Assembly: GCF_003018255.1 (NCBI RefSeq)
Contig: NZ_CP027440.1
Origin: Escherichia coli
Lineage (GTDB): Bacteria; Pseudomonadota; Gammaproteobacteria; Enterobacterales; Enterobacteriaceae
Direction: 5' to 3' (one strand)
DNA: 64,000 nt
Position numbers and translations under genes: made by a program. Positions within the stretch are counted from its first letter, which is position 1; each line of letters opens with the position of its first letter. This document shows, piece after piece, positions 7,687 to 30,138 of this stretch. Below the pieces are notes generated by a model. It did not search any database. It worked only from the letters and a program-made list of their open reading frames with translations, and had not been told where the DNA came from.

Positions 7687-7687
7687 G

Positions 7688-8793: not shown

Positions 8794-8824
8794 TCACGCG
8801 ATTACAGCACACCGTGGTATCAAT

Positions 8825-8901: not shown

Positions 8902-8908
8902 TTAAAAT

Positions 8909-10617: not shown

Positions 10618-10848
10618 GTTATAGTTTTATTTGTGAATTAAATCAATTATAGCGATGAATTACAAGGGGTTAAATGATGCCACGGCATAACGAATTTGAA
10701 TATATTGAGTCTTGTGTTGCGGTAAGAGGTTACACGCCAGGACGCAGGTTAAATGCTTACAAGATTAGGGGATATTGTTTGCTTTTAACGGTAAACAAAT
10801 TCCCCGGGGCTATACAATACCACCGGGGAGAAAATCTATTTAACGTTG

Positions 10849-12225: not shown

Positions 12226-12270
12226 TTTCTAAGTCGTGGGCTACAGGTTCGAATCCTGCAGGGCGAGCCA
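12226..12270 (+). repeat. argU 3'-end direct repeat (prophage attR core)
   Basis: tctaagtcgtgggctacaggttcgaatcctgcagggcgagcca matches the last ~45 nt of argU with about 3 mismatches. Confidence 0.75.
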
Positions 12271-12460
12271 TTTCCTCGCCATTTATTTGTTCCCTTTTAC
12301 AAATTACACCATCACTTTGTTGTCGCGGTTTTGCTAAATAATTGGAACACGTCAGACGAATAAAATGAAAACAGAAATTCTGCTAAACAATTCATCTTGC
12401 CAGGATTTTGATTAGGAAAGTGAAAAGGAAAGGAGCAAGCTAAGTTGCTCCCTTTAATCA

Positions 12461-13351: not shown

Positions 13352-16324
13352 TTACCAGTGCACTCCAATGGTGAGAAACGCGTTGTTGCGCTCTCCGTTA
13401 CGTTGATTAATCGCCTTAAAGGTATGTTGATATTCGATGCCGAGACTGACTTTGTGCGGCCAGGCGTCGTAGTGCGTCTCGCCGGTCCAGATATTCCAGC
13501 GGACCCCGACACCGCCAAGCTGCGCGCCCTGAGTGCCTTTATCACGATAACCGTTGTCCTGAACGTGAGCATAAGGCTCAATAGTCTGCCCGTTTGCCAC
13601 CTTCTGATGCCAGCTGACTCGATAATCTGCCGTCCACGCCTGAATATCCTGGCGGATATATTGCGCCGCATCGAGGTACAGGTTTTGGGCAAACCAGCCT
13701 GAACCGTTCGGGTGCCATTCGTCGCTGTATTTGCCGCCATTAAAGAATGAGGCGCTGGCGCGCAGCATGGTATCGGATGCGCCATTTTGTCCGTTCAGCG
13801 GCAACTGCTGTTCGACGGCGAGGAAAAAGATCTGATCGCGCAGCGGCTTCCAGCGCAGACCGGTGCCGGACATCGGATTTTTCACCGGCATCATCACCCC
13901 GTTTTCACCGGTATCGGCAAAGACGCGGCTATAAACTGAGAGCAGGTCGCCTTCCAGCAGCATATTGCGTCCGATGCGGTACTCGGCTTCCAGTTGCCCG
14001 TAGCTACGATAGCTTTTCCTTGGCGCTGCGCCGCCGACATTATTGTTAGCGGTACTCATTGCGCCGGAACGCAAGCCAATAGAAGAATCGAAACTGAACG
14101 TCCAGTGGCGACCGACCTCCTCATGCAGACGGCGGAAATTGAAGCGTTGCTGATTTTGCTCTGGGGTCAGTGGGGTTATCAGCGCCTGATTATCAATGTC
14201 ATCAATCACCAGTCGGGCGTAGTGCTGCGTCGCAGGCATGTCATCCAGACGCTGGTTCACGTAGGCCAGTTGTCGGATAAGTGCCGGATCGTCCGGTAGC
14301 CCTTTATGCGCCTGTTCGAGCATTTCCCGCGACTGTGCGATATCACCGCTATCCCACAAGGCGTAACCGAGCGCTGCCTGGGTGTTGCTATTATTCGGTT
14401 CCAGTTCCAGAGCGGCGCGCAAATCACTCACCGCCGCCGGGACATTATGACGTTGGCGATAAATTGTCGCCCGCGCAACGTAAGCGTTGGCAGAAGGCGC
14501 AATATTGATTGAGCGCGTGAGATCGCTCAGTGCGAGTTCCGGCTGACCAGGAATGTAACGTTGCGCATGCAGCCACCAGTAGAGGGCATTGTTTCCCAGC
14601 CCACGTTGTTCTGCCTGCTGAAGCCAGCGATCGCGAGCCGCACCATTTCCTGCCGCCTGGGCGGTATTGGCAGCAGCAAGCAGATCCTCATTGCTCATGC
14701 CGTGAAGACTGATTTTCTGCCAGGCCGCCAGTGCGGTGGCGTAGTCCTCAACCTGATACGCCTGATAGGCTACCGCACGATGTTGCCAGGCGTTCGGTTG
14801 TCGTTGTTCGGCCTGAAGCCATGCATACAACGCCACACCGGGTAGCGTGTCCCGATAACACTTTGCCAGACGGTTCCAGGCGGCAGCATCGTAGGAAGGC
14901 GACATATCGCCCAGCAAGCGAACTATTGCCGGGCAATTATCTGCAATACCCGGCAACTGACTTTGCCACTGACGTTGCTCCGCCAGCGGTAAGGGTTTCG
15001 ATAAAATCGCCACCTTCGCCGGAGTTGCCAGGTAAGGATGACTTTCCAGCAGAGACGCCAGTCGCGCCATTAAAGTCTGGCTGACACGCGCATCGCCCTG
15101 GAAAGGATAGCGTTGCAGCAATAAATCGGCAGCTTCACGTGACTGCTCGTTCTGCATCAGTTGCCAGGTCAGTTGATCCAGGCGGGTAAGATTTGCCGGT
15201 TCTTGCTGATACAGCAATCGTGCCAGACGCAGAGCTTCAGCCTTGTTACGGGTCGCCACGCTAACGGTATAACGCTCCTCAAGCATTTCATTGGCGGGGA
15301 GGGTGGCGAGCAGTTTTTGCGCTGCGTCGTACTGACCTTCTTTTAACAGCACCGGTAGCGTCGCGCCAACAACATACTGGCGGTTGTCGGCAAACTGTAC
15401 CGTATAATTCGCCAACGCCTGAACGGGGTTGCCGCTGTATTTAGATAACAGATAGAGCCAACTTTTCTCTTGTGCGTCCGTGGTAAATAGCGGCGTATTT
15501 TCAATGAGATAATGCTGGAGGCGTGCTTTTTCGCCACGATAAGCCAGCGCGGTCGCGTAAGTAATATATGACTGAGGATCGGTGAAGATCCCCTGTGATT
15601 GCAGCGCCAGGATCCGATCGTCCAGCTGCCCGGCAAGAAGCACATCAAACCACTGACGGCGTTCTGCCGCGCTTAATGTGTTCTGCTGGCGTGCTTCATT
15701 GTATAGCGTATCTGCCTGGGACCATTGTTTCAGGTAGATTGCCCGTTGCAGCAGATCGGTTCGCAGCGTTTTTCCTTCCGGCGATGCAGCAAACGTCGCA
15801 TCGTTCAGTTGCGCTCTGGCGACAGGTAATTGTGCCAGCCGCAGGGCATTCTGCCCGACTTCACTGCGACAACGCAGGGTCGGCGCAGCATCGCACGCTT
15901 TTTGCTGGGCAAGCAGTTCTTCAACAGTCGTAACGCTTTTCACTTCAACTGGAATAGCCGCCAGACTGCGCTCAAGTCGGGCATCTCCTGGGTGACGTTT
16001 CAGTTGATCCTCAAGCAACAGCCGCGCCCGGTCATCATGACCAAAATGGCGATAGGCTTCCGCAAGGTATAAAGTCAGCGGAATATTATCCGGCACCTGT
16101 TGGTGTATATATTCAAATTCGCGGATGGCGGTTGCTTCGTCGTTATTTTTCTGTGCCTTCAGCGCCTTATCGAGACGGGGATAAATAACAAAATGGCGAT
16201 AATCGCTCAGCCCCAGCTCTTCTGCGCTGGTGCCGATATTGTCTGCGAGTGCGCTGGTGCTCAATAAAGACGTCAGCAGTAAACCAGACCATCCGATGAC
16301 GCGATTAAGGTTATTCTCCTTCAT
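13352..16324 (-). CDS. nfrA: bacteriophage N4 adsorption protein A (outer membrane, TPR-rich)
   Basis: ORF 13352..16345; start placed at MKENNLNRVIGWSGLLLTSLLSTSALA (signal peptide), about 990 aa. Confidence 0.9.
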   Translation of the reverse strand: MKENNLNRVIGWSGLLLTSLLSTSALADNIGTSAEELGLSDYRHFVIYPRLDKALKAQKNNDEATAIREFEYIHQQVPDNIPLTLYLAEAYRHFGHDDRARLLLEDQLKRHPGDARLERSLAAIPVEVKSVTTVEELLAQQKACDAAPTLRCRSEVGQNALRLAQLPVARAQLNDATFAASPEGKTLRTDLLQRAIYLKQWSQADTLYNEARQQNTLSAAERRQWFDVLLAGQLDDRILALQSQGIFTDPQSYITYATALAYRGEKARLQHYLIENTPLFTTDAQEKSWLYLLSKYSGNPVQALANYTVQFADNRQYVVGATLPVLLKEGQYDAAQKLLATLPANEMLEERYTVSVATRNKAEALRLARLLYQQEPANLTRLDQLTWQLMQNEQSREAADLLLQRYPFQGDARVSQTLMARLASLLESHPYLATPAKVAILSKPLPLAEQRQWQSQLPGIADNCPAIVRLLGDMSPSYDAAAWNRLAKCYRDTLPGVALYAWLQAEQRQPNAWQHRAVAYQAYQVEDYATALAAWQKISLHGMSNEDLLAAANTAQAAGNGAARDRWLQQAEQRGLGNNALYWWLHAQRYIPGQPELALSDLTRSINIAPSANAYVARATIYRQRHNVPAAVSDLRAALELEPNNSNTQAALGYALWDSGDIAQSREMLEQAHKGLPDDPALIRQLAYVNQRLDDMPATQHYARLVIDDIDNQALITPLTPEQNQQRFNFRRLHEEVGRHWTFSFDSSIGLRSGAMSTANNNVGGAAPRKSYRSYGQLEAEYRIGRNMLLEGDLLSVYSRVFADTGENGVMMPVKNPMSGTGLRWKPLRDQIFFLAVEQQLPLNGQNGASDTMLRASASFFNGGKYSDEWHPNGSGWFAQNLYLDAAQYIRQDIQAWTADYRVSWHQKVANGQTIEPYAHVQDNGYRDKGTQGAQLGGVGVRWNIWTGETHYDAWPHKVSLGIEYQHTFKAINQRNGERNNAFLTIGVHW

Positions 16325-18548
16325 TTTCGGACTCCAGTTGCGCAACCTGTTCTGGGTTTAAACCTGCTTTGAGTAATAGTGATTGCATCGAAACTTGTAA
16401 TTCGCGTTGAATTGTCAGGACGCGATCCAACGTTTCCTGGCTGATAACGCCTTCGGTGACCAAAAACTTGCCGAGCGGCAGAGAACTGCGTTCATGGCGC
16501 AATAACAACACGTTAATTGCTGAACGATTAATATGACCGAGCGTGGTCAGTATTTCGGCGAACAGGAACTGATGCGGCACATATTGCCGCCAGATTTCAC
16601 CGGCCTGCTGTTCCGTGAGCCACTGATGCTGAACCGCATTGTACAACATTGCCCGCGGGTCGTGACCGCGTCGGCGTGCATACCAGTGACGTAACCCCGT
16701 GACAATTTGTCCGCGCAGAACAATGACGTAACGCACTTTGCGTCCGACTTTACGCGTCAGGGCTGCCAGCGAAACCGGGTCAATACCATCTTCACTGCCG
16801 ACAATTAACTCATCATTTTCCAGACGCAGCGGCAGCACTGCATAATGCAGCGCCACGGAAGCCGGCATTTCGGCAATCAGTGATGAAGGGATCTGCCAGG
16901 CGTCGATCGACTCCCACGCCACGCCGTTTTGCTCTGCCAGCGCCTGTGCCAGCTGTTCGGCGCTAATCAGCCCCTGCATCAGCATTGAACCGCCCAGGCG
17001 TAGACCTTCGACGCGATTACGCAGTGCTGTATCGAGTTGTTCTTCAGTGATGACCTGATTTTCCAGCAGGATTTGGCCTAACGGGCGCAACGAGCGGGTA
17101 TCGCCAGTCACGCTGGGGAAGTCATGCGTTGTTTTATCCCACGCGACGCGACGTGGATCGCCGTGTTGAAGTACCTGTTTTAACGCGCGCCAGTTGGCCA
17201 TGAAGTTAATCAGGTTGCCCCAGAAAAGACGCAGGACAGATAGCAGCCCCTGCGTCAGACCGTAGTAGCCAGTGACAAAAATCACCCGCTGCACGATGCG
17301 GTTAACCATCAAACCAAAGTTTAGCCACAGCAGGGTCATTAACCATGCGCTGCCGCTGAAAATAGAAAGGAAATGCCAGGCATCGGGCCACAAACTTTCA
17401 TACGCCAGTAACAGCAAAAGCTGGATCATCACCAGCATCGCGAGGAAGCTGACAAAGTTACTGATTGCCCCTTTGCGGTCGCGCCAGAGAAAGTAGTTCA
17501 GCGTCAGGCTGGAGGTCCATTTGTGGGTTTTAAAGCCCTGGAAAACAATGCCGATGATCCAGCGAGATTTTTGTCGAACCGCAGTCGAAAAGGTATCGGG
17601 GAAATATTCGCGCACGCAGATCATGTTTGACGTCCGCGCGTGCTGTAAAAATTTACGCTGCTCGCGTTCTTTGGCTTCGTCCACCACCGGAAAACGGACA
17701 AAAATTTCCGTCATACCTTTTTCTTTCAGGCGGAAACCAATGTCGTAATCTTCAGTCAGACTCTGCACGTCGAAAGCAATACCGTCACCGTCAGCTAACA
17801 GTGCGGTCACGGCGCGGCGGCTGAAACAGGTGCCGACGCCTGCGCTGGGCACCTGTCCGGCGAGGGCTTCACGCACCGGAACATCTTTGCCATGCAGTTC
17901 TGAAAACTCATCAATGTAGGTCATGCTGGTGAAGTGCGTCCATTCGCGTTCGAACGGATACACTGGGATCTGAATCAGATCTTTACGCTCGACCAGATAG
18001 TTGAACAGACGCAATTCCATCGGTGAAATCACATCTTCGGCGTCATGCAGAATAAAACCAGCAAAAGCGAAATTGGCGCTACGTTCAAATTGGGTGATGG
18101 CGTCCAGCACGTTGTTCAGACAGTCGGCTTTGCTGGTGGGGCCAGGACGCGCGCAGACTACCTTATGCACGTTCGGGAAGCGAGCGCACACTTCGTCAAC
18201 ATCACGCTGAGTATCGGGGTCGTTGGGGTAGGTGCCAACAAAGATATGATAGTTTTCGTAGTCGAGCGTGGTCGCCGCCAGCTCGGCCATATTGCCGATG
18301 ACGCCCGTTTCATTCCACGCCGGAACCATAATCGCTAACGGTTTTTCATCTGGTTTATACAGTTCGCGGTAACTCATTCGCGGGTAGCGGCGATAAACAC
18401 TCAACTTGCGTTTAATGCGGCGTACCCAGTAGACGACATCAATAAAAAAATCGTCCAGCCCGCTGATGAACATGATGACCGCTAACGTTATCGCGATTAC
18501 TTTTAAGCCGTAGAGCCAGGTAGCAAAAACATCAAGAAGCCAGTCCAC
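16311..18548 (-). CDS. nfrB: bacteriophage N4 adsorption protein B (inner-membrane glycosyltransferase-like)
   Basis: 745-aa ORF, N-terminal TM helix, GT2-like region; overlaps nfrA start. Confidence 0.9.
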   Translation of the reverse strand: MDWLLDVFATWLYGLKVIAITLAVIMFISGLDDFFIDVVYWVRRIKRKLSVYRRYPRMSYRELYKPDEKPLAIMVPAWNETGVIGNMAELAATTLDYENYHIFVGTYPNDPDTQRDVDEVCARFPNVHKVVCARPGPTSKADCLNNVLDAITQFERSANFAFAGFILHDAEDVISPMELRLFNYLVERKDLIQIPVYPFEREWTHFTSMTYIDEFSELHGKDVPVREALAGQVPSAGVGTCFSRRAVTALLADGDGIAFDVQSLTEDYDIGFRLKEKGMTEIFVRFPVVDEAKEREQRKFLQHARTSNMICVREYFPDTFSTAVRQKSRWIIGIVFQGFKTHKWTSSLTLNYFLWRDRKGAISNFVSFLAMLVMIQLLLLLAYESLWPDAWHFLSIFSGSAWLMTLLWLNFGLMVNRIVQRVIFVTGYYGLTQGLLSVLRLFWGNLINFMANWRALKQVLQHGDPRRVAWDKTTHDFPSVTGDTRSLRPLGQILLENQVITEEQLDTALRNRVEGLRLGGSMLMQGLISAEQLAQALAEQNGVAWESIDAWQIPSSLIAEMPASVALHYAVLPLRLENDELIVGSEDGIDPVSLAALTRKVGRKVRYVIVLRGQIVTGLRHWYARRRGHDPRAMLYNAVQHQWLTEQQAGEIWRQYVPHQFLFAEILTTLGHINRSAINVLLLRHERSSLPLGKFLVTEGVISQETLDRVLTIQRELQVSMQSLLLKAGLNPEQVAQLESENEGE

Positions 18549-18699
18549 ACAAAAACCTTACATTAACGCTGGTTATGTTTAGGGTGGCGTATATTAAGGT
18601 TTTTTATGAATTGTGACAGCTTTTTACCATTAATAGGTATGACTATTGCGGCACGTTATTTTTACACTGGTTATAAAAGTTGCCGTTTGCGTAGAATGT

Positions 18700-19900
18700 A
18701 GACAAAAGCGTGGTGTCAAGGAGGGGAGGTTAACGCAGGGAAAGATTACGAAAGCCCGCTCCCAGCAAGGACTGACGCGAGATAGTTTCTGTCCATGGCT
18801 GCTTTTCGCAACTTACGTCTTAACCCTGCCTTGAATACCTTATCATTCGTCAAAATATTAATAGCGATGTGCCGTAGCCCTGAAAATAATTCTGCTGCAT
18901 TTCCTCTTCTTATTTTGCAGTCGTCTTCATTCATTACCACGTCCAGACGCCAGTGCAGCTTATTCTCCACGTGCCAGTGGTTTCGGATTGCTGTGGCGAA
19001 CTTCTCTGCGGTTAAATCAGCAGAACTGATATAATATCTGACCGTCATTTCTGGCTCTTTCTTTTGTTCTGCTATTATTGACCGAAAGGAGACTGCCACG
19101 CATAATTTCTTCAGTCCTTTCCATTCAAACGTGAAATCAATAAGTTCATCAGGGACATCGCAAACAATGTGAAGCCGGATTTCTTCTCTGCCGTGACTCT
19201 TTTCACTAATTGCGTAACTGTCATGCTCTGGATTATTTAATTCTTTCAGTGGGAATTTTTCCTCAAAGGCTTTATTAAGCCGCCCCTGATTTCCTTTTAC
19301 AGCGAATAAATAATCACCGCCCTGTTTTTGTATCTTCTCTGCAATATCTTTCTGGCAACCCATCGCATCAGTTGTGATGATTTTTCCTTTAATATCCAGC
19401 ATGTTAAGAAGTTCTGGGATAGCTGTAATCTCATTAGATTTCTCATCCGTCCTGATCTGTCCGATGACCAGACTGTGCATTGTTGAGAACGCACTAATGA
19501 CATGAATCGCTCCCCTGCGGCGACTCCTGTCATAAGAATGCCGGAGTGTTTTTCCATCGATTGCAATAACGTCTTTATCATCTGAAGTATGGCAATCTCG
19601 CATCCAGTTAATAAAGCACTCGTGAAATTTTGAAGGACTGATACAGGATACAACTCTGGCGATGGTATCGTGAACAGGAATACCATTTTCAAAATCACCA
19701 TATTGTTTTAAAAAATCGAGATGTGTTTCCCCAAAATCCTCTATATCTTCCCAGCCTTCTGCACCAGAAATAACGGCACAAATAGTCAACAGTAGAATAT
19801 CCGACAATTTATGTTCCACTTTCCAGGCTTGTCTGTAATCGGGGATAATAGAAATATGTTCCATCAATTTTTTAAGTTCCATTTTGTTCTCCTTAATTAT
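18700..19900. mobile_element. ISAs1-family (H-repeat) insertion element at the distal end of the Rhs island; boundaries approximate
   Basis: Contains an H-repeat-type transposase ORF; this family is classically found at the end of E. coli Rhs elements. Confidence 0.6.
18746..19882 (-). CDS. ISAs1-family transposase (H-repeat-associated protein)
   Basis: 378-aa [54 protein letters not shown]... typical of H-rpt/YhhI-type transposases. Confidence 0.85.
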
Positions 19901-19908
19901 GTAAGGAG

Positions 19909-20146
19909 TATTTGATCATGTATACGCAATAAAAAACAGCTTCAGGTAATGAGGAATATCTCGATTTTTAAACATAAAATGCGAATTACTTAGTACAAAA
20001 AATGTACTTCTGATGATCTTTCCCTGGTATTTGATCATGTATAAGCAATAAAAAACAGCTTCAGGTAATGAGGAATATCTCAATTTTTAAACATAAAATG
20101 CGAATTGTTTAGTACAAAAAAGCAGCGTTACGTGATCTTTCCCTGG
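19909..20146. repeat. tandem duplication, 2 x 119 bp, next to the H-repeat transposase start
   Basis: tatttgatcatgtatacgcaataaaaaacagcttcaggtaatgaggaatatctc... repeated at 19909 and 20028; copies diverge in their last third. Confidence 0.85.
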
Positions 20147-20230
20147 TGCAGGAACTGAGGAAGGAACTTTATCAGGTTAAACAGGTGGTGAAGGGAATGA
20201 AGAACGGGATATCCGGCGTATTACGCGAGG

Positions 20231-20266
20231 TATAAAAATAAAAGCCGGGAGATTGTCACTCCCGGC
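20231..20266 (-). terminator. candidate intrinsic terminator after the orphan immunity gene
   Basis: Hairpin gccgggag...ctcccggc followed on the minus strand by a T-rich run (ttttatttttat). Confidence 0.5.
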
Positions 20267-20272
20267 AACATA

Positions 20273-20554
20273 TTATTTTTTTATTTCATTATATCTGATA
20301 AAAAAAGTATTTAGCGCATCATGTTCATCTTGTGAGAACAATAAAATAATTTTATCCCATGAATGTCCTGTTACTCCATAATAGTCTTCAATATAAGATT
20401 GAAGCCTTATTAATATCTCAATATTGACGATTTCTTTTGGCTCTCTCATTTGCCATCCATCCAGGAAAGCTTTTAACGCCGATATGGTATGCCTGCTTAA
20501 ATATAAAGCTGGTCTTTTTTCTATCATATCAATCAGTTTAACAATATCATTCAT
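20273..20554 (-). CDS. putative immunity protein for the orphan Rhs toxin tip (RhsI-like)
   Basis: 93-aa AT-rich ORF starting 2 nt after the toxin-tip stop; position is the only evidence. Confidence 0.5.
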   Translation of the reverse strand: MNDIVKLIDMIEKRPALYLSRHTISALKAFLDGWQMREPKEIVNIEILIRLQSYIEDYYGVTGHSWDKIILLFSQDEHDALNTFFIRYNEIKK

Positions 20555-20556
20555 AA

Positions 20557-21180
20557 TTAAAACCTTGATGGAGTAATGGTGTATTCGCCAGGAGAGTATA
20601 TATCATTCAGCCAATCTTCATACTTTATACCAGAAGGATTCATATTATCAAAAACTGTATCACCTACTTTTATTGCTTCATGATGACCATTAGTTGCTAT
20701 ATTTTTACCTATTCTATCACTCCATATATTGCCAAAGGCACCTTGTTTATTTTTAGTTTCGAGTATGAGATGCTCACCATTTACCCCAGCTTGTTGCATT
20801 TTACTTTTTAACGCTGCGGCAAATTTATCGCATTGAAAAAGCTGTTTAAACTTATCACTTATTGTTGTTGCAAGATCCCTTGTTTTTGCGATATCGCAAA
20901 TGGTTAATCCTAATGGATCAATATAACCAAGGGGATTATGAACATATGCATAATTGTTTATCCCGCCTCTCAGCCCTATCGGGTCACTCACCAGGTACAT
21001 CCCTGTTTCCGGCTCGTAATACCGGAACCGGTTATAGCACAGCCCGGATTCCGTATCCTGCCACTGTCCTGCATACAGCAGGCCGGGGTCGGGGTCGGCT
21101 TCCGGGTCCAGCTCCCCGCGCGGGTCCGGGTAGCCGGTGTCTGCGGGCAGACTGAGTGCCAGCCCCCACAGGCTGGTTTG
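20557..21180 (-). CDS. orphan Rhs C-terminal toxin cassette (conserved PxxxxDPxGL junction plus about 115-aa variable toxin domain of unknown activity)
   Basis: In frame with orphan core fragment after an in-frame TGA; contains YYEPETGMYLVSDPIGLRGG...NPLGYIDPLGL then an AT-rich divergent tail. Confidence 0.65.
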   Translation of the reverse strand, partial: QTSLWGLALSLPADTGYPDPRGELDPEADPDPGLLYAGQWQDTESGLCYNRFRYYEPETGMYLVSDPIGLRGGINNYAYVHNPLGYIDPLGLTICDIAKTRDLATTISDKFKQLFQCDKFAAALKSKMQQAGVNGEHLILETKNKQGAFGNIWSDRIGKNIATNGHHEAIKVGDTVFDNMNPSGIKYEDWLNDIYSPGEYTITPSRF

Positions 21181-22476
21181 TCACGGTCGCCACACGGTTT
21201 TACCTTCACTGTTAAAGAGCATCAGCGGACGGCCCGTCAGGTCGCTCACCGCATGATTCGTCCGCGTCACCCACTGCGGGGCCACCGACGGATGCGGCTG
21301 CCGTACCCGGCTGCACTGCTGGCTTATCAGCTCAAAGCCGTTAAACACCAGGTGCCGTACGCTGTACAGTTTATCATCGCGGTATTCCCGGATTTCCGCA
21401 ATATTGTCGCCGTCCCACAGGTACGTAAAACGGATTTTCTTCCGGTCGCAGCGTTTTTCCGTCCGCCTGCCGCTGGCGTCGTAGCGGTATTCCCACTGCT
21501 CACCCTGTGCGCTGCAATACCCGGTCAGCTGGTCACGGCTGTCCCACCGGAACCGCTCTGTTTCCGGGCGGTAGCCGTCACGGTGTCTGGTGCGGCTGAC
21601 CATCCGGCCTGCGGCGTCATAGTCATACTGCGTGTTTCCGGCCTGTTTCAGCCGGTGGCCTCCGGCATACTGGTCAGTCTCTTCACTTATCCGGTGCCTG
21701 CCCGCAGACTGCGCCTTCAGGTAGCCACAACTGTCATAGCCATAGGACTCATCGCCTTCGCCATAGCCCAGCCCGGTGCCTGAGGCTGTCACCGCCGTGA
21801 CCTGACCGTTCCGGTCCAGCCGGTATTCCCGCCGTGTTTCCCGTCCGTAATCTTCCCGGCTGGTGACAGCCGACACATTGCCCGCGCTGTCGTAACGGTA
21901 CTCCCGTACCAGTGAGGGGAGCAGCCCGCCCCATGTGGTTTCCTCCGGGAAAAATCCGGCGCGCTGGGTGACAAGCTGGCTGGCTGCATTCCAGCCCTGC
22001 TCACAGGCAAAACCCCGGTTACTGTGCCGGAGCACTTCACGTCCTGCCTCATCACGGCTGAACGTCAGCGTCTCATCCCCCGGCAGGATAACCTCCGTCA
22101 GTTCTCCGGCGGCGTTGTAGCGGTAGGTGGTTTTCAGCAGGGATTCACCGGGATGTCTGTCGCGTTCATCTTCCGGTGGCAGGATACAGCGGATGACGGT
22201 GTGTTCATCGGGGTAGTGGTATTCAATGGCCCGTCGGCCCTGAGTGGTGACATTCACCCGCCCGCGTTCGTCATAGCCGGTGCGCTGTGATGTGCCGTCC
22301 GGGCTGAAGATACCCGTCAGCCTGCCGGATTTGTCATACGCATACTGCGTTTTGCCTTCCGGCGTGATGACTTCTGCCAGGCGGCCTGCGGCGTCCCGGC
22401 TGTAGAGGATGGTTTCCTCCAGACCGTTAACCCTGGCGGTACACAGGCCATCGGCGTCATAGCGGTAACGCCAGGC
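21181..22476 (-). pseudogene. orphan rhs core 3' fragment (no start or N-terminus), near-identical duplicate of the 3' core of the main rhs gene
   Basis: About 1.3 kb near-identical at DNA level to 23589-24884; YD-repeat translation; homology to main copy ends at about 22476. Confidence 0.8.
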
Positions 22477-22503
22477 TACTCCGTTGTACCCAGCTCATAG
22501 AAT

Positions 22504-22926
22504 TTATCTAGCAATTTGTATTAAGGGGGTTTCACCCACATGTTTTAATAAACTCATTAACCAGATGGCCTCTTCTCTCGTTCCGGAGTATATTACCTTC
22601 GATTCATTTCTAATAATTCGAAGTGCTTCTTTTGTATCAATCGAAAAAGCCTTACGAATGACTTTTATAGTTTCCATCTGTGATTTTATATTTTCAAGTC
22701 TAACATTCCATAAACCCTCAAAATCAATCAATTGTAGACGAATTTTTTCTGGGGGAAAGCCTATATCATCTGATTCACTACGTAATCCGCAATTATGGCA
22801 TATAATTGATTCATACCATGCGAGTATACCATTGTGACTCGTCTGCCCTATAGCTATAGAACATATTTTTCCACAGCAAGGACACTCAATAGTCGTTTTA
22901 AATTCATCACCAAACACTATAACCAC
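22504..22926 (-). CDS. putative immunity protein for the main Rhs toxin (RhsI-like), Cys-rich zinc-ribbon-like N-terminus
   Basis: 140-aa ORF overlapping the toxin stop; CPCCGKIC ... CHNCG cysteine pairs. Confidence 0.55.
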   Translation of the reverse strand: MVIVFGDEFKTTIECPCCGKICSIAIGQTSHNGILAWYESIICHNCGLRSESDDIGFPPEKIRLQLIDFEGLWNVRLENIKSQMETIKVIRKAFSIDTKEALRIIRNESKVIYSGTREEAIWLMSLLKHVGETPLIQIAR

Positions 22927-23588
22927 CCTCTCATCCGCTTATATCTTCGAATCGTCTCGTAAAATTTCTGTTCCATCTCAGTACCTTTGGGATGATGATC
23001 ATTCAATCCTCGCTTCCACCACCTATGATGTAATTCTTCATGAATAATAACATCTCTTAATGCTGCACGAGACGAAAAACTATTTTTACCAAACTGAGTT
23101 CCTTCCCAAAGTTTAGCAATCCCTGTTCGCATAAACGGATTGTATTGAGGGATATATGTTAGTTTAAGATATGCAAAATCTTCTTTAAGTATGGCTGTAA
23201 TTGCCTTATTTCTGGCTCTGGCCGTAGAACCTGTAACATGACCGAGATCAGAAACATAAGTCTGTGGCCCTCTAGAAAACTCGACTGTTTTATTAATTAT
23301 ACTAGTTATAGCTAATCCCAGCGGATCAACATACCCACACGGATTAGGCACATACCGGTAAGTCTGCTCACCCCCCAGCAACCCCAGCGGATCACTCACC
23401 AGGTACATCCCTGTTTCCGGCTCGTAATACCGGAACCGGTTATAGCACAACCCGGATTCCGCATCCCGCCACTGTCCTGCATACAGCAGGCCGGGGTCGG
23501 GGTCGGCTTCCGGGTCCAGCTCCCCGCGCGGGTCCGGGTAGCCGGTGTCTGCGGGCAGACTGAGTGCCAGCCCCCACAGGCTGGTTTG
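22917..23588 (-). CDS. C-terminal extension of main Rhs protein: PxxxxDPxGL junction plus about 130-aa toxin domain with HExxH motif
   Basis: Same frame as Rhs core, separated by TGA at 23589-23591; translation ...[20 protein letters not shown]...VDPLGL then ...[13 protein letters not shown]... Confidence 0.65.
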   Translation of the reverse strand, partial: [223 protein letters not shown]

Positions 23589-26500
23589 TCACGGTCGCCA
23601 CACGGTTTTACCTTCACTGTTAAAGAGCATCAGCGGACGGCCCGTCAGGTCGCTCACCGCATGATTCGTCCGCGTCACCCACTGCGGGGCCACCGACGGA
23701 TGCGGCTGCCGTACCCGGCTGCACTGCTGGCTTATCAGCTCAAAGCCGTTAAACACCAGGTGCCGTACGCTGTACAGTTTATCATCGCGGTATTCCCGGA
23801 TTTCCGCAATATTGTCGCCGTCCCACAGGTACGTAAAACGGATTTTCTTCCGGTCGCAGCGTTTTTCCGTCCGCCTGCCGCTGGCGTCGTAGCGGTATTC
23901 CCACTGCTCACCCTGTGCGCTGCAATACCCGGTCAGCTGGTCACGGCTGTCCCACCGGAACCGCTCTGTTTCCGGGCGGTAGCCGTCACGGTGTCTGGTG
24001 CGGCTGACCATCCGGCCTGCGGCGTCATAGTCATACTGCGTGTTTCCGGCCTGTTTCAGCCGGTGGCCTCCGGCATACCGCTCAGTCTCTTCACTTATCC
24101 GGTGCCTGCCCGCAGACTGCGCCTTCAGGTAGCCGCAGCTGTCATAGCCATAAGTCTCATCGCCTTCGCCATAGCCCAGCCCGGTGCCTGAGGCTGTCAC
24201 CGCCGTGACCTGGCCGTTCCGGTCCAGCCGGTACTCCCGGCGTGTTTCCCGTCCGTAATCTTCCCGGCTGGTGACACCTGACACGTTACCCGCGCTGTCG
24301 TAACGGTACTCCCGTACCAGTGACGGAACCAGCCCGCCCCATGTGGCTTCTTCCGGAAAAAATCCGGCGCGCTGGCTGACAGGCTGGCCGGCTGCATTCC
24401 AGCCCTGCTCACAGGCAAAACCCCGGTTACTGTGCCGGAGCACTTCACGTCCTGCCTCATCACGGCTGAACGTCAGCGTCTCATCCCCCGGCAGGATAAC
24501 CTCCGTCAGTTCTCCGGCGGCGTTGTAGCGGTAGGTGGTTTTCAGCAGGGATTCATCGGGGTGTCTGTCGCGTTCATCTTCCGGTGGCAGGATACAGCGG
24601 ATGACGGTGTGTTCATCGGGGTAATGGTACTCAATGGCCCGTCGGCCCTGAGTGGTGACATTCACCCGCCCGCGTTCGTCATAGCCGGTGCGCTGTGATG
24701 TGCCGTCCGGGCTGAAGATACCCGTCAGCCTGCCGGATTTGTCATACGCATACTGCGTTTTGCCTTCCGGCGTGATGATTTCTGCCAGGCGGCCTGCGGC
24801 GTCCCGGCTGTAGAGGATGGTTTCCTCCAGGCCGTTAACCCTGGCGGTACACAGGCCATCGGCGTCATAGCGGTAACGCCAGGTCACGCCGCCCCAGTCA
24901 TGCTCTTCCGTCACCCGCCCACAGTTGTCGAGAAGATAACGGTATGACTCACCCTGCGGGTTGATGACTTCTGTCAGTTGCAGCGTGTCTTTATCATAGC
25001 GGTACTGCCAGCGGTGGCCTTCACCGTCCGTTCGCGCCACCGGCAAATCAAACGGGCCGTATTCCATTGTCCAGACAACGCCGTTACCGTCCGTGTACGC
25101 CAGCAGGTTGCCGTGGCGGTCATAGCGGAATCCTTCTGCGCCGGTTCCTGCCCGCTCAAGGCCGCTCAGTTTATGGTGCTGCTGCCACTGCAACCGCACT
25201 GACTGACCGCCGGGGCCGCGCATCTTCACCGGCAGGTCGTGACCACTGTATTCGGTGTGGTGTTCACGGCCCATCACGTCGGTGAGTGTTTCCGGCCGGT
25301 TGTGGTGGTCGTACTCTATGCCCAGACGCCGTTCATCCTGGCGGAATATCCCCGACAGCAGCCCCTGAGCGGTGTACGCCAGCCGGGTCTCTTCGCCCTG
25401 TGGCGATACCAGACTCACCGGCAGGCCGCGTTCATCGCACTGCTGTGTCCACGTCTGCCCGGCAGGGTCGGTGATGTTGCTGAGCAGGCCGCGCTCATCA
25501 TAGCGGTACAACCACACCGCGCCGTCTGCCGCCGTATAACGGCTTAACTGACCGTGTACGGCGTTGTATTCAAATTTCTCCACCCGTCCGGCAGGGGAGT
25601 GGCGGGCCAGCAGGTGATGGAATTCATCCCATTCATACGTGGTGGTGCTGCCGTCCGGCGCTTCTTCCCGCAGAATATTGCCGTCAGGATCATAGTAATA
25701 ACGGTGAATGCCCTTGCCGTCCGTCACGGTGGTGCAGCCGTCACTATAGTCCAGCGTGGCGTTGTAATAGCCGTCCGCCCCGGTGACATTCACGCACCGG
25801 CCCTGTTCATCGTAGGTGAAACGGCTCCACGTCTGGTCGTTATCGGACCAGCGGATGATCCGGTCCGCAGCGTCGTACTCATAAAACAGGTGGTAGTCCA
25901 GCCGCGCATCCGCTTCGGTCAGCCGCCCCCGCGCATCCTGTTCGTAGGTCGCCAGCGTCTGTATGCCGTTATCCGTGCGGTGAATGGCTTTCAGGTAGCC
26001 GCTGGCGTGGTACGTCAGTTTAAGCCGGATCCCGTCGGTGTGACTGACACCCGTGATGCGGTACTGGCTGTCGCGCTCAAACGTGATGCGGTTGCTGGCG
26101 GTGTCGCTCATCCCGCCCAGCATGTACATCCGGTCACCGGGGCTGTGTGCCAGGCGGTCATCATTGGTATCGTCAGTCACCGGGTGGCGCAGGCGCATTC
26201 CCGGAAAGGCGTCATAAAAGAAGCGGCTGCTCAGGGCATCACGGTCGAACAGCTCCAGGTAATCGTCGCGGCGGCGCAGGATATACTGGGCGTGATACGG
26301 GTTAACCGCCGTATCACTGTCTCCGTCGAAGGCAAAGTACAGCGTGGCTCCCTGGCTGATGATATCCACCCGGTTTCCCTGTTCACGCACCCAGGCGTAT
26401 TCGCTCCAGGAGTCGCTCCAGCCCACGCCCGTCAGGCCATGCAGTGGCAGTACAGAACTGTGGAAACGGGTGAAGGAGAGGGGGAGTGTCTGGCCCAGCG

Positions 26501-27728
26501 TAAAGTCGGTACGTTCGTCGCAGTATGCGCCGGTTACCGGATCGACAGGATCTGTTACCCATCTGATGACTTTATTGGCAATACTTTTTAACGACTTACC
26601 TGTTTTCCCCAGCAACGCGCCGAGCTTTGCCCCCAGCAGCTTCCCGCTTTTCCCCAGCAGGTTTCCCAGTTTGCCGAGTTTCGCCAGATTCCCCAGTTTT
26701 CCCAGCAGTCCCGCGGGCGGCAGAAGATAGCTGGCTATCGTTATTCCCCCCAGGATCATTCTCTGCCACGGCGGGAACTCCGGCTGGATATCCAGATAGG
26801 TCACCTGTTCACCGCCAATAAAGACGTCCGGCGAACCTTCCACGATTGCCGCGCTGCACTCCAGTTTGTCGCCCTTGCGCGCGGCAGGCTGATTGTTGAT
26901 AAAGACGTTGCTGCTGCCCTGGGCTATCCTCGGTGGTTTGTTCTCCTTGTCGCAGAGCGCCGTGTCCTCACCGGCTTCCGGGAAATCCACGTCTTTTTTG
27001 ATTTCGCCACGCCCGCCCACCATGGTGGCAAACTCCATTAATACCGGACCGGCGGGAAACAGAAGCGATGCGCCGGCGCTGACGCGATCCATAATACCGG
27101 CATTGCTGTCCGTCAGGGTGATAACAGCGTTCCCCCAGGCCTTCGCCAGTGGCACTGCTTTTTCCGCTGCCGATTCAAGCAGGTCAGTGGCAATATCCCC
27201 CCATGAAGGTTCCCCCTGTGGTGGAGAGGGTATTGCTTCAGTCAGGGGAGGAGGGGGAAGGGTGACGGCGGCCCTGGCTGCTGGCTTACCGTTAATTTTT
27301 ACGTTTTCAGAACCGGTATTGATGGCGCCGTCCGTGTCACAAAAACTGTTTATCCATGACTCAAGCTGGTTCTGTTTCTCCTCCACATAATCACTCGCCT
27401 TATAGCTGGCATACATCAGCGCAGGCACCAGAACCAGCGCATAAGGGCCGGTGGCGCAGGCGGCCATAATCAGGCAACCTTCTGCGATAGTTACTATCGC
27501 CCCCAGCACGGCCCCTGCCAGTGCCCCCAGAAAACTTTTATGCTGAATTTCATCGCCCAGCCTGGCGGCAGGTGGGCCGGACTTCTTTGCTGCCAGCATC
27601 TGTGCAATGGCTTTGTCGTTGGCTGCCCGTTTCATCTGGCTGGCGACCATCGCCTGCTGTGACAGCATTCGCATTGCCAGCGTACCGCCTGCGGTCGCTC
27701 CCTGTGGGCCGCCTGGTCCTTCACTCAT
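23589..27728 (-). CDS. prePAAR/PAAR-domain Rhs repeat protein (T6SS effector core with YD-repeat shell)
   Basis: 1379-aa ORF; prePAAR motif [10 protein letters not shown] near N-terminus, PAAR motif ([14 protein letters not shown]), many YD repeats (YRYD, YEYD, YDxxGR); ORF ends at in-frame TGA before the DPxGL region. Confidence 0.9.
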   Translation of the reverse strand: [1379 protein letters not shown]

Positions 27729-27747
27729 GTGTTATCCCTCGTTTATG

Positions 27748-28209
27748 TCAGCGCGGCTGGTCCTTTTGGATGTCATTCTCCGGTGGCAACGGGGTGAAGC
27801 TCTTTATCACCTCCAGCAGCATCGTCTTTTGACTGTTCTTCAGGGATAAGGAGGTGCTGAAAGTGAAGGTCAGCAGCGTATCTCCACGCCGCTGGAATAC
27901 GGCTATCTGGTCAATCCGTCCCTGGTTCCCCTCATCTTCCGGACCGTTCCAGGAATAATCCAGCAGCCAGGCCGGGGCCTCTGCCAGAGTGATTTCCCGG
28001 CAGGCATGTTCGGTGTACCCATCAAGTTTGCCCTGGTACAGCGCCAGCGTTTCCTGGTACAGCTCTGGTGTCAGGGTTCCCTGTGGAACGGCTTCGCGGG
28101 TAATGACCAGGTTGATGCCACTGTTATCTGTGGACACCAGGACCTGCATTGACTGATCCTGCCATTGCGATGGCAGCTGAATATGACCTTCATTAAAAGT
28201 GAACTGCAT
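27748..28209 (-). CDS. DUF1795/Eag-family effector chaperone (inferred)
   Basis: 153-aa ORF between vgrG and the prePAAR-Rhs gene; size and position typical of Eag chaperones for prePAAR effectors. Confidence 0.65.
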   Translation of the reverse strand: MQFTFNEGHIQLPSQWQDQSMQVLVSTDNSGINLVITREAVPQGTLTPELYQETLALYQGKLDGYTEHACREITLAEAPAWLLDYSWNGPEDEGNQGRIDQIAVFQRRGDTLLTFTFSTSLSLKNSQKTMLLEVIKSFTPLPPENDIQKDQPR

Positions 28210-28236
28210 AAAATACTCCCTGATAATCTGAATGAA

Positions 28237-30138
28237 TCAGTTGATGAAAACAGAACCGCCCACGATGGTGATGCCATCCTTCGACAGCCTGATTACCGTC
28301 GATTCCCCGACCTGTAGCTGAATGCCATCCGGCGTCAGCGCAATTTTGCTTTCCTCCACGGCCAGCATAATTTGCTTAATTGCCGTATAAGCCTGTATAC
28401 CGTCGCCTTCGCCACCATTGTTTACAGCGTCAACATGCACTGAACCGGCAATCGTGCCTCTGTCCTGAAAAACATCCTCAGATAAAGACCCTTTTAGTAC
28501 GCCTGTGATTTTGTGGCCTTTTTCCACCGTAAGAAGGCGGTTACCTTCCTGGATCATGACCGTCTGGTCATTTTTTACGGTTTCGCGGTGATCGTGTTTT
28601 ACGGTGGTGGTACGGTCGTTGAGTACCTCGGTATCCATGTTCTTCTGGGCGTGGATGTAGACCTGTTCTTTCCCTGTCGCATCGTCAAACTTCAGCTCGT
28701 TAAACCCGCTGCCCATATATGTTTTGGAGCGGATGGTCATCTGCGTCTTCGTTCCCGGCAGGCTGCCCGGCGAGCGGTTATCTTCGTGGTAGGTGCGCCC
28801 CATAATGATCGGCTGGTCCGGATCGCCGTTGAGGAAGTCCACAATCACCTCCTGACCCACGCGCGGTATCGCCAGGTTGCCAAATCCCGGCCCCGCCCAC
28901 GCCTGCGCCACCCGTATCCAGCACGAACTGTCCTGATTGGCCGGGTTATAGCGGTCCCAGTTGAATTTCACCCGCACCCGGCCATGCTCGTCGCAGAAGA
29001 TTTCCTCTCCCGCAGGCCCCGTCACGACGGCGCTCTGCGGACCGTCCACTGACGGCTTTGGCTTCGGCTGAGGTCGCCACGTCCGGTCTGCCGGTATTAC
29101 CGCAAAGTGGTTATTCAGCGTGGTACCTGACCCCCTGCGTCCCGGCACCGCCTGCGGCTGTTCGCCGTGCAGTTCGCTCGCCACCACCTGCCATTCCCGG
29201 TTCAGGTTCGCCTGCGGATGCTCCGTCAGCACAATTCGCCGTCCAGGCCATATCTCCGGCGAGCGGCTCATTCCCCGCGCGGTTTCGGCGTTGTTTCGCC
29301 AGCCGTCCATCTGCCAGCGGGCAAAGTTCTGCCCGTGGGCGCTCTTGAAACGCCCGGGCCAGTCATACACTTCATACTGTGTGCGCTGGTAATCCTGATG
29401 CTGGCCTTCCTGGTCAAAACGTCCGGCCCAGCCGGGGCGTTTAAAGGTGTAGTCTTTGGTCACCACAGAGGAAGGACGGATTTGTGCGCTGTAGCGGAAC
29501 TGGCTGATGCAGAGGGTGCTCACCTCGGTACGGGTGTTCGGGTTCCAGGGGATTTCAAAGGATTCCGGCAGATAGCGGACCGTGTCGCACAGCACCAGAC
29601 TCTGGTCGGTACTTTTCTGCGCGTGCTCCTCATAGAAGAAGATGCCTTCCTCCGCTGCTATCCGGCAGAGAAAGTCGTAATCGGTTTCACCGTACTGGAC
29701 ACAAAACTCACGGGAAGGATGCGGCTCACTGAACAGCGGGCTCCACTCCGTGACGTCATTTTCCTGCAGTATGGTGCCGAGGATGCTTCTGATGTCCTCG
29801 TTCTGGAATATACGGAAGTTCTGACGCAGTCCTGCCCGCCACAGCGGCGGGCGCACCTTCATGCTGTACAGCATCTGGTTTTTGTCGTTCTCCCCGAGTT
29901 CAAACCAGGTCACCACGCCTTTCACCCGGCGCTGTACGTCATCGCCCTGCCATACCGTCAGGTAGGCCATTTTGTCCAGCACCTGCGCAAATTCAAGGGA
30001 GAGAAACTGCTGACTGACCAGAGAAAGGTCAAGGGAAAAAAGTGAAGAGAGTGACTGGGTGAGATGAAAGGAGACCACCGCAAAAGCGTCCGGTGGCAGG
30101 CCGTCCACTTCCAGTGTGAAACGTAATCCGGTTGACAT
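28237..30138 (-). CDS. vgrG: type VI secretion spike protein VgrG
   Basis: 633-aa ORF starting MSTGLRFTLEVDGLPPDAFAVVSF... with gp27/gp5-like regions and C-terminal beta-helix repeats. Confidence 0.9.
   Translation of the reverse strand: MSTGLRFTLEVDGLPPDAFAVVSFHLTQSLSSLFSLDLSLVSQQFLSLEFAQVLDKMAYLTVWQGDDVQRRVKGVVTWFELGENDKNQMLYSMKVRPPLWRAGLRQNFRIFQNEDIRSILGTILQENDVTEWSPLFSEPHPSREFCVQYGETDYDFLCRIAAEEGIFFYEEHAQKSTDQSLVLCDTVRYLPESFEIPWNPNTRTEVSTLCISQFRYSAQIRPSSVVTKDYTFKRPGWAGRFDQEGQHQDYQRTQYEVYDWPGRFKSAHGQNFARWQMDGWRNNAETARGMSRSPEIWPGRRIVLTEHPQANLNREWQVVASELHGEQPQAVPGRRGSGTTLNNHFAVIPADRTWRPQPKPKPSVDGPQSAVVTGPAGEEIFCDEHGRVRVKFNWDRYNPANQDSSCWIRVAQAWAGPGFGNLAIPRVGQEVIVDFLNGDPDQPIIMGRTYHEDNRSPGSLPGTKTQMTIRSKTYMGSGFNELKFDDATGKEQVYIHAQKNMDTEVLNDRTTTVKHDHRETVKNDQTVMIQEGNRLLTVEKGHKITGVLKGSLSEDVFQDRGTIAGSVHVDAVNNGGEGDGIQAYTAIKQIMLAVEESKIALTPDGIQLQVGESTVIRLSKDGITIVGGSVFIN

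What the first reader, a model, noticed from the sequence alone, without database searches (positions are those of the whole stretch)
20990..24884. About 1.5 kb near-identical direct repeat of the rhs 3' core flanking the main toxin/immunity module
Positions about 20990-22476 and about 23398-24884 are almost identical at the nucleotide level, with a handful of substitutions (for example GESLL versus DESLL in translation). Direct repeats of this length bracketing the main toxin tip and immunity gene are a ready substrate for homologous recombination, which would delete the intervening module and place the orphan tip on the full-length gene.
Basis: seen in the sequence. Interest (0 to 1): 0.5.

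Follow-up and report, generated by a model that had tools for sequence, protein, structure and literature searches.

The report
Repeated Rhs core flanking toxin module
The 1.5-kb repeat is real, but it is the ordinary and already described layout of an E. coli Rhs toxin locus: a full-length gene followed by a silent "orphan" toxin cassette that starts with a copy of the gene's 3' core. In this strain both copies also carry the same premature stop codon, so swapping toxin tips by recombination would not yield a working toxin.

Summary
Observation confirmed. Window 20971-22475 and 23379-24883 are a gap-free 1505-bp direct repeat with 35 mismatches (97.7%).

The rhs gene is on the minus strand, in the E. 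coli nfrB-cusS island: vgrG, a DcrB/DUF1795-type gene, then PAAR-Rhs. The upstream copy is the 3' core of the full-length gene. It is followed by a Tox-MPTase5 tip and a putative immunity gene. The downstream copy is a 5'-truncated orphan core carrying a Tox-PL-2 tip and its own putative immunity gene.

This is the clade IV "position 4" rhs locus, and C-terminal displacement explains the layout (Jackson 2009). Tip switching by main/orphan recombination was shown experimentally in Salmonella LT2 (Koskiniemi 2014).

- Both copies have an in-frame TGA (GGA to TGA) about 90 codons before the core/tip boundary, so the main gene is interrupted and any recombinant would be too.
- Mismatches are mosaic (1.2%, 7.1%, 0% over 611 bp, 7.9%).
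- The nearest relative (JNE112863) is identical across the sequence flanking rhs and ISAs1 and differs only in clustered patches, which is direct evidence of gene conversion between the copies.
- The TGA haplotype occurs in only 3 of 5426 complete E. coli genomes.

Verdict: real, ordinary and already known in kind, with a small twist.

The parts
28237..30138 (-). vgrG (T6SS spike protein), first gene of the island
   Evidence: 633-aa ORF. TIGR03361 VI_Rhs_Vgr, 627 bits against a cutoff of 186. RefSeq homologue WP_001561595.1 in JNE112863.
27748..28209 (-). DcrB/DUF1795-family gene, at the position of an Eag-type Rhs chaperone
   Evidence: 153-aa ORF. Pfam DcrB PF08786, E 3e-27. RefSeq calls it 'DcrB-related protein'. 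The chaperone role is inferred from family and position.
23592..27728 (-). Main rhs, translated part: PAAR-like region plus YD-repeat core. The 1379 codons end at the premature TGA.
   Evidence: ORF. TIGR01643 YD repeats in 11 stretches, 241 bits. PAAR domain model at 43.9 bits, below its cutoff of 124. The intact homologue in JNE112863 is 1601 aa.
23379..24883 (-). Repeat copy 1: the 3' core of the main rhs
   Evidence: blastn self-alignment.
23589..23591 (-). In-frame TGA in the main gene (WRP*QTSLWGL); the codon is GGA (Gly) in intact alleles
   Evidence: It lies 23 codons before the start of the match to TIGR03696 Rhs_assc_core, which falls entirely after the stop (protein 4).
23468..24078 (-). 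611-bp tract identical to orphan 21060-21670; contains the TGA and a 6-bp CCGACC insertion (23492-23497). Candidate gene-conversion tract.
   Evidence: In sister strain JNE112863 the main copy differs from the orphan at 12 sites within this tract.
22917..23378 (-). Diverged last ~25 codons of the core (second PxxxxDPxGL motif, NPCGYVDPLGL) plus the main toxin tip. Tox-MPTase5 zinc metallopeptidase with an HEELHH motif.
   Evidence: Pfam PF15641, E 2.5e-29. Translation. 33-38% GC against about 60-66% in the core.
22504..22926 (-). Putative main immunity gene (longest ORF; the RefSeq homologue WP_073568922.1 starts at the equivalent of 22917)
   Evidence: Identical DNA in JNE112863. The same protein accompanies the same tip in DETEC-S792. 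No Pfam or NCBIfam family, so the role is inferred from position and linkage.
20971..22475 (-). Repeat copy 2: the orphan core fragment. It begins 28 nt after the main immunity stop codon. The frame opens at 22494 with no credible start codon and no N-terminal domain.
21181..21183 (-). The same in-frame TGA in the orphan copy
20557..20970 (-). Orphan end of core (NPLGYIDPLGL) plus orphan toxin tip, Tox-PL-2 (papain-fold toxin)
   Evidence: Pfam PF15643, E 1.7e-22. Translation. RefSeq 'papain fold toxin domain-containing protein'.
20273..20554 (-). Putative orphan immunity gene (93 aa; same coordinates and DNA as WP_001561591.1 in JNE112863)
   Evidence: The same protein follows the same tip in AF40, where the tip sits on the full-length gene. 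No Pfam family.
20244..20266 (-). Terminator-like GC hairpin followed by a T-run, immediately after the orphan immunity gene; probable end of the operon
   Evidence: This is a consensus scan only, and the number of sites in the region does not exceed the shuffled expectation.

Best explanation
This is a standard Rhs main/orphan toxin-immunity array at the E. coli nfrB-cusS rhs locus. The downstream 1505-bp copy is the core fragment left attached to an older tip (Tox-PL-2 plus its immunity gene). That tip was shunted downstream when a new module (core fragment, Tox-MPTase5 tip, immunity gene) integrated by a single homologous crossover in the core; this is 'C-terminal displacement' through a circular intermediate. 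The repeat is therefore both the footprint of that insertion and a live substrate for RecA-type recombination. A reciprocal crossover would delete 2408 bp (the main tip, the main immunity gene and one repeat copy) and join the orphan tip to the full-length gene. Non-reciprocal exchange (gene conversion) homogenises patches of the two copies. Conversion has demonstrably happened here, and one patch carries a GGA-to-TGA nonsense codon that now sits in both copies. In this strain the main Rhs is consequently truncated at residue 1379, ahead of the RHS-associated core domain, the PxxxxDPxGL motif and the toxin. The locus is probably a decaying, non-delivering one, and tip switching would give another interrupted gene. 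Shown here: the repeat, the anatomy, the domain identities, the shared stop, the mosaic and clustered differences, and the generality of the layout at this locus. Inferred: the displacement history, the direction of conversion, and loss of function.
For: - Repeat: 1505 bp, 97.67%, no gaps.
- Anatomy: vgrG, DcrB-family gene and PAAR/YD-repeat rhs. The tips are non-homologous: PF15641 versus PF15643. A small ORF follows each tip. The orphan lacks an N-terminus and a start codon.
- Composition: core about 58-66% GC, tips and immunity genes 33-38% GC, the contrast Jackson et al. describe.
- Location: between nfrB and cusS, which is 'position 4, clade IV rhs' in PMC2935791 Table 3. [quoted passage not shown]
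- Same locus in other strains: core direct repeats of 1.5-2.3 kb at 95-98% in E. coli W, EC16, DETEC-S792 and JNE112863.
- Exchangeability: AF40 has the Tox-PL-2 tip and immunity gene (97.8% identity) directly on a full-length rhs, with no MPTase5 module.
- Experimental precedent for switching: LT2, 522 bp at 95% identity.
- Gene conversion: divergence along the repeat is 1.2%, 7.1%, 0% (611 bp) and 7.9%, and 0 of 200,000 permutations reach a 611-bp run. Over 16.8 kb the window and JNE112863 differ at only 43 positions, all in clusters. The sequence outside rhs and ISAs1 is identical. 12 linked substitutions at 23559-23700 make the window's main copy identical to the orphan.
- The stop: TGA at the same codon in both copies. 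The TGA haplotype is in 3 of 5426 genomes, while the GGA haplotype of the JNE main gene is in 926. TIGR03696 lies entirely after the stop.
Against: - No deletion recombinant derived from this particular arrangement was found. AF40's core is a separate allele (about 96%) and carries its own early stop at codon 31.
- The direction of the TGA-carrying conversion is unresolved. The DETEC-S792 main gene also has TGA, so the JNE main gene could instead have been repaired by imported DNA.
- Loss of function is inferred from sequence alone. UGA followed by C is a weak terminator context in E. coli (my own recollection, not checked here), so some read-through cannot be excluded.
- Immunity function of the two small ORFs is untested, and neither has a family match.
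Confidence: 0.85

Rival explanations
1. The array is still an operative toxin-switching device. Recombination (after duplication, as in Salmonella) puts the orphan tip on the delivery gene, and the TGA is bypassed by read-through, by reversion, or by conversion from an intact allele.
For: A long, highly similar substrate with a 611-bp perfect block. Experimental precedent in LT2. Both tips and both small ORFs are otherwise open and identical to those of JNE112863, whose main gene is intact. The stop context is TGA-C, which I recall as a leaky context; that is not tested here.
Against: Both recombination partners carry the stop, so no crossover can remove it. The allele is rare (3 of 5426 genomes), which fits a recent defect better than a regulated recoding site. 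No recoding signal was looked for or found.
Confidence: 0.08
2. The tip modules act as internally expressed toxin-antitoxin (addiction) modules. The repeated 3' core is retained because it carries an internal promoter and start site, as reported for Salmonella rhs.
For: PMC7043789 reports P2 promoters inside the conserved 3' core just upstream of PxxxxDPxGL, and toxic products from internal starts, with P2-like sequences also in E. coli. Here an ATG-initiated ORF (MYLVSDP...) covers each tip downstream of the TGA, so a stop in the delivery gene would not abolish such expression.
Against: The sigma-70 scan found no promoter-like site in either copy of the 3' core, and the count for the region equals the shuffled expectation. 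This clade IV core differs from the Salmonella P2 sequence quoted in the paper (my comparison by eye with the sequence). Such a function would need about 100 bp of core, not 1.5 kb.
Confidence: 0.1
3. A simple local tandem duplication of the rhs 3' end, followed by divergence of the duplicated tip, with no acquisition of a foreign module.
For: A direct repeat in tandem orientation with a short spacer.
Against: The tips belong to unrelated Pfam families, and nucleotide identity falls to 23-70% within 120 nt of the repeat end. Each tip/immunity pair occurs independently in other strains: the MPTase5 module in DETEC-S792 with a different orphan, and the Tox-PL-2 module alone in AF40.
Confidence: 0.03
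4. An assembly artefact: a mis-joined or falsely duplicated repeat.
For: Repeats of 1.5 kb are difficult for short-read assemblers.
Against: There are 35 fixed differences between the copies, and unique sequence on both sides and between them. The same structure occurs in independent complete genomes from Japan and China.
Confidence: 0.02

Closest known systems
E. coli clade IV rhs locus at 'position 4' (nfrB-cusS), with dissociated tips; C-terminal displacement model (Jackson et al. 2009, PMC2935791)
   Same: Same chromosomal site and strand. A full-length gene is followed by core-fragment-plus-tip units that appear as direct repeats. The core is GC-rich and the tips AT-rich. Orphans lack start codons and sometimes carry premature stops.
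   Different: This strain's particular pair (Tox-MPTase5 attached, Tox-PL-2 displaced), and the fact that the premature stop is in the attached gene too, apparently spread by gene conversion. The paper describes cores within a locus as essentially identical. Here they are mosaic, from 0 to 7.9% divergent.
Salmonella Typhimurium LT2 rhs-main (STM0291) / rhs-CT-orphan (STM0292) (Koskiniemi et al. 2014, PMC3967940)
   Same: Main and orphan share a stretch of near-identical core. Recombination fuses the orphan tip to the delivery gene and deletes the main tip and immunity gene. Linked to a T6SS.
   Different: The homology here is about three times longer and more similar (1505 bp at 97.7% against 522 bp at 95%). 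It belongs to a different rhs clade and has different toxins. Both partners here carry a nonsense codon. No experimental evidence of switching exists for this strain.
Orphan cdiA-CT/cdiI and rhs-CT/rhsI arrays (Poole et al. 2011, PMC3150448); Neisseria mafB and pilE/pilS silent cassettes
   Same: Silent 3' cassettes downstream of an expressed polymorphic gene, each preceded by a stretch homologous to the expressed gene. Jackson et al. draw the mafB and pilS analogy.
   Different: Different protein families and secretion routes. I saw only the title and abstract of PMC3150448. The remaining details rest on my own knowledge.

Membership tests
Rhs polymorphic toxin (T6SS PAAR-Rhs effector) | YD-repeat core | tested here: met
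   TIGR01643 in 11 stretches, 241 bits against a cutoff of 15.8.
Rhs polymorphic toxin (T6SS PAAR-Rhs effector) | RHS repeat-associated core domain ending in PxxxxDPxGL, followed by a variable toxin tip, in one uninterrupted reading frame | tested here: not met
   The domain and motif are present in both copies (TIGR03696, 69 and 78 bits; NPCGYVDPLGL and NPLGYIDPLGL). They are separated from the core by an in-frame TGA, so the gene is an interrupted member. The JNE112863 allele is intact.
Rhs polymorphic toxin (T6SS PAAR-Rhs effector) | N-terminal PAAR domain | tested here: inconclusive
   NF033420 matches residues 263-305 at only 43.9 bits, against a cutoff of 124.
Rhs polymorphic toxin (T6SS PAAR-Rhs effector) | Linkage to vgrG and a DUF1795/DcrB-type (Eag) chaperone gene | tested here: met
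   TIGR03361 at 627 bits and PF08786 at E 3e-27, both immediately upstream on the same strand.
Rhs polymorphic toxin (T6SS PAAR-Rhs effector) | A functional T6SS apparatus in the genome and actual delivery of the toxin | not testable with these tools
   Only a 64-kb window is available. No T6SS core cluster was examined and no experiments are possible.
Rhs main/orphan array (C-terminal displacement architecture) | Downstream 5'-truncated core fragment of the same clade as the attached core, in direct orientation | tested here: met
   1505 bp at 97.67%. The orphan frame opens at 22494 with no N-terminal domains.
Rhs main/orphan array (C-terminal displacement architecture) | Non-homologous tips, each followed by its own small cognate immunity gene | tested here: inconclusive
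   The tips are unrelated (PF15641 versus PF15643). The small ORFs are present and stay linked to their tips across strains. They have no family match, and immunity itself is untested.
Rhs main/orphan array (C-terminal displacement architecture) | The same tip is attached in some strains and dissociated in others at the same locus | tested here: met
   The Tox-PL-2 tip is attached in AF40 and dissociated in the window and the JNE strains.
Rhs main/orphan array (C-terminal displacement architecture) | GC-rich core, AT-rich tip and immunity region | tested here: met
   58-66% against 33-38% GC.
Recombinational orphan-toxin switching (as in S. Typhimurium LT2) | Detectable main/orphan recombinant junctions in a population, and expression of the orphan toxin on the delivery protein | not testable with these tools
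   This needs reads or PCR. Only indirect evidence is available: gene-conversion patches.

The most novel reading that the evidence does not exclude
The silent orphan acted as a reservoir in which a nonsense mutation could arise without cost. Gene conversion across the 1.5-kb repeat then copied it into the expressed main rhs gene (and, in DETEC-S792, into all four copies), inactivating the effector. Keeping orphan cassettes would then carry a mutational risk for the active gene, and concerted evolution could spread a null allele through an Rhs array. A more remote variant is that the shared UGA-C is a leaky stop that throttles toxin production.
Probability: 0.45. Interest if true: 0.35.

Novelty: already known. 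Interest (0 to 1): 0.22.

Why it matters
The repeat is a textbook example of how Rhs (and other polymorphic-toxin) loci store and exchange toxin tips, so confirming it adds little. The modest value lies in the comparative detail. Near-identical sister genomes let individual gene-conversion patches be read off directly, and they show that exchange across the repeat can carry a null mutation between the silent and the expressed copy. For annotation, it means the main rhs gene of this strain should be called a pseudogene or interrupted gene. Predictions of toxin switching from repeat structure alone should first check that the shared core is intact.

Tried and rejected
- The repeat finder under-reported the repeat (300 nt, 89%) because of its reference-copy logic. 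I replaced it with blastn.
- I first suspected two frameshifts between the 1379-aa ORF and the tip ORF. Three-frame translation showed a single in-frame TGA instead.
- I considered AF40 (H19) as the predicted deletion recombinant. I rejected it as a recent derivative because its core differs at about 3.5-3.8% from both window copies, with many private sites, and the whole island is about 96% identical. It shows only that the tip can be attached.
- An exact-protein look-up of the truncated 1379-aa product found nothing on record.
- The promoter and terminator scan gave no enrichment and no site in the 3' core, so there is no support for an internal promoter.
- Pfam and NCBIfam gave no family for either putative immunity protein. 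NCBIfam also gave nothing for the DcrB-like protein, though Pfam did.
- The direction of the TGA conversion could not be resolved from four related genomes. The haplotype counts show only that TGA is the rare, derived state.
- No inverted repeats or other structured elements were found in 15000-30000.
Full report
**1. The observation**

A blastn self-comparison of the window returns a single long direct repeat, 20971-22475 against 23379-24883. It is 1505 bp with 35 substitutions and no gaps (97.67% identity), and the start-to-start spacing is 2408 bp. The repeat is far beyond chance and is not an assembly artefact. The copies differ at 35 fixed sites, are separated and flanked by unique sequence, and the same layout occurs in independent complete E. 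coli genomes.

**2. Anatomy**

Everything relevant lies on the minus strand. In the direction of transcription the genes are:
- vgrG (28237-30138; TIGR03361, 627 bits).
- A DcrB/DUF1795-family gene (27748-28209; PF08786, E 3e-27).
- A large rhs gene starting at 27728, with a PAAR-like segment and 11 YD-repeat matches.
- The main tip: the last part of the core, a second PxxxxDPxGL motif (NPCGYVDPLGL) and a Tox-MPTase5 metallopeptidase domain with HEELHH (PF15641, E 2.5e-29), ending at 22917.
- A 137-140-aa ORF (22504-22926), presumably the main immunity gene.
- The second repeat copy, starting 28 nt later. This is a 5'-truncated core with no start codon and no N-terminal domains.
- The orphan tip, with its own PxxxxDPxGL and a Tox-PL-2 papain-fold toxin domain (PF15643, E 1.7e-22).
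- A 93-aa ORF (20273-20554), presumably the orphan immunity gene.
- A terminator-like hairpin (20266-20244).

The core is 58-66% GC, while the tips and small ORFs are 33-38% GC.

High identity ends at the first DPxGL of the core (VSDP[L/I]GL). The last ~25 codons before the true core/tip boundary are already diverged (47-70% nucleotide identity in successive 30-nt windows). Any crossover in the repeat would therefore be in frame and would bring in the orphan's own cleavage motif.

**3. Context and what is known**

The island sits between nfrB and cusS in E. coli. Table 3 of Jackson et al. 2009 (PMC2935791) lists exactly this site as rhs 'position 4', the only clade IV rhs locus of E. coli. The paper states that this locus shows dissociated tips downstream of the intact gene. 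[quoted passage not shown]

Their model is C-terminal displacement. A circle carrying a core fragment, a tip and intervening genes integrates by one homologous crossover in the chromosomal core, attaching the new tip and shunting the old one downstream. That model predicts the structure seen here.

I confirmed that the layout is general at this site. E. coli W, EC16, DETEC-S792 and JNE112863 have one to three orphans, with core repeats of 1.5-2.3 kb at 95-98% identity.

Strain AF40 has the same Tox-PL-2 tip and small ORF (97.8% identity) attached directly to a full-length rhs and has no MPTase5 module. The 'orphan' tip here is thus an 'attached' tip elsewhere, as the model expects. AF40 is not a recent recombinant of this arrangement: its core and the rest of its island are about 96% identical to the window and carry many private sites.

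[quoted passage not shown] Main/orphan junctions appear in evolved populations, and the authors argue that duplication of the locus precedes the fusion so that main immunity is not lost (PMC3967940).

**4. New details found here**

(a) Both copies carry an in-frame TGA at the same codon...GKTVWRP*QTSLWGL..., at 23589-23591 and 21181-21183. Intact alleles have GGA (Gly) there. The stop lies 23 codons before the start of the match to the RHS repeat-associated core domain (TIGR03696) and about 90 codons before the core/tip boundary. The main gene would therefore yield a 1379-residue product lacking that domain, the cleavage motif and the toxin. Because both partners carry the stop, no crossover between them can give an uninterrupted fusion.

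(b) The 35 mismatches are mosaic. In gene orientation the divergence is 1.2% over the first 494 bp, 7.1% over the next 311 bp, 0% over 611 bp (main 23468-24078) and 7.9% over the last 89 bp. A mismatch-free run of 611 bp was never reached in 200,000 permutations.

(c) The closest genome, JNE112863, is identical to the window across the sequence flanking rhs and ISAs1 within the 16.8 kb compared. It differs at only 43 positions, all clustered:
- five in ISAs1;
- a 6-bp indel in the orphan;
- in the main gene, 3 substitutions, the same 6-bp indel and 12 linked substitutions at 23559-23700;
- four substitutions at 24556-24630;
- six within 24 bp at 25075-25098;
- a singleton at 26049.

The 12 linked sites include the G/T of the stop codon. 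At all 12 the window's main copy equals the orphan copy, whereas the JNE main copy does not. That is the signature of gene conversion between the two repeat copies. The minimum tract is 142 bp and the maximum 611 bp. The shared 6-bp insertion requires at least one further exchange.

(d) A 36-mer centred on the stop, which cannot match unless the T is present, occurs in only 3 of 5426 complete E. coli genomes, at 6 places: the orphan in both JNE strains and all four copies in DETEC-S792. The corresponding GGA haplotype of the JNE main gene occurs in 926 genomes. TGA is therefore a rare, derived allele that has spread among paralogous copies within one small lineage.

Whether it moved orphan-to-main (my preferred reading) or the JNE main gene was repaired by imported DNA cannot be decided from these four genomes.

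**5. Mechanism and its status**

Shown:
- the repeat, the gene order and the domain identities;
- the shared stop;
- patchy exchange between the copies;
- attached and dissociated states of the same tip in different strains.

From the literature: displacement by a circular intermediate, and switching by homologous recombination after duplication.

Inferred:
- The array arose by displacement of the Tox-PL-2 tip by the MPTase5 module.
- A reciprocal crossover would delete 2408 bp.
- The main effector is inactive in this strain.
- With the main toxin no longer delivered, loss of main immunity through deletion would no longer be penalised by sibling attack.

On general knowledge of RecA recombination in E. 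coli (not tested here), 1.5 kb at 97.7% identity with a 611-bp perfect block is an efficient substrate.

**6. Rivals**

- A still-operative switch that relies on UGA read-through or reversion is possible but unsupported.
- An internally expressed toxin-antitoxin role, as in Salmonella (PMC7043789), cannot be excluded. However, the promoter scan found nothing in the 3' core.
- Simple duplication and divergence is contradicted by the unrelated tips.
- An assembly artefact is contradicted by the independent genomes.

**7. Verdict**

The feature is an already described architecture at an already described locus. The shared nonsense codon and the readable conversion patches are a minor but real addition. 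Interest is low (about 0.2).

Noticed in passing
window 1820-2324: 5.1 tandem copies of a 100-bp unit at 94% identity. By synteny with JNE112863 it lies in the intergenic region between the ybcF carbamate kinase gene and purK. The unit contains REP/PU-like palindromic sequence (GCCGGATAAGGCGTT...CGCCGCATCC), so it is probably a BIME-type REP array.
   Followed up: partly
window 8825-8901, 8858-8903 and 12227-12272: tRNA-Arg(tct) at 8825-8901. The 46 nt at 8858-8903, which overlap its 3' end, are repeated at 12227-12272 at 93%. By synteny the pair brackets an integrase fragment, a tail-fibre-assembly fragment, a methyltransferase and ompT. This looks like att-type repeats of a degraded DLP12-like prophage remnant.
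   Followed up: partly
window 19908-20147: A tandem duplication of about 120 bp (19908-20028 against 20027-20147, 91-96% identity), AT-rich. It lies just downstream of the orphan immunity gene and terminator, next to a symE toxin fragment annotated in the JNE genomes. JNE112863 has the same duplication.
   Followed up: no
window 18746-19882: The ISAs1-family transposase ORF is intact here (378 aa), whereas the otherwise near-identical JNE112863 and JNE23-011 copies are annotated with an internal stop. Five of the 43 differences between the window and JNE112863 fall at 19115-19340.
   Followed up: no
window 25075-25098: Six substitutions within 24 bp of the upstream rhs core, outside the repeat. 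They distinguish the window from both JNE112863 and DETEC-S792. This is probably a micro-conversion patch from an unidentified donor.
   Followed up: no
L004 (DETEC-S792) 1-10717: This strain has a main rhs plus three orphans, and all four copies carry the same TGA haplotype. This is an extreme case of the null allele being shared across an entire Rhs array.
   Followed up: partly
L002 (AF40) 11023-11025: AF40's full-length rhs, with the attached Tox-PL-2 tip, has an independent in-frame stop at codon 31. Inactivation of this effector has therefore happened more than once at this locus.
   Followed up: partly
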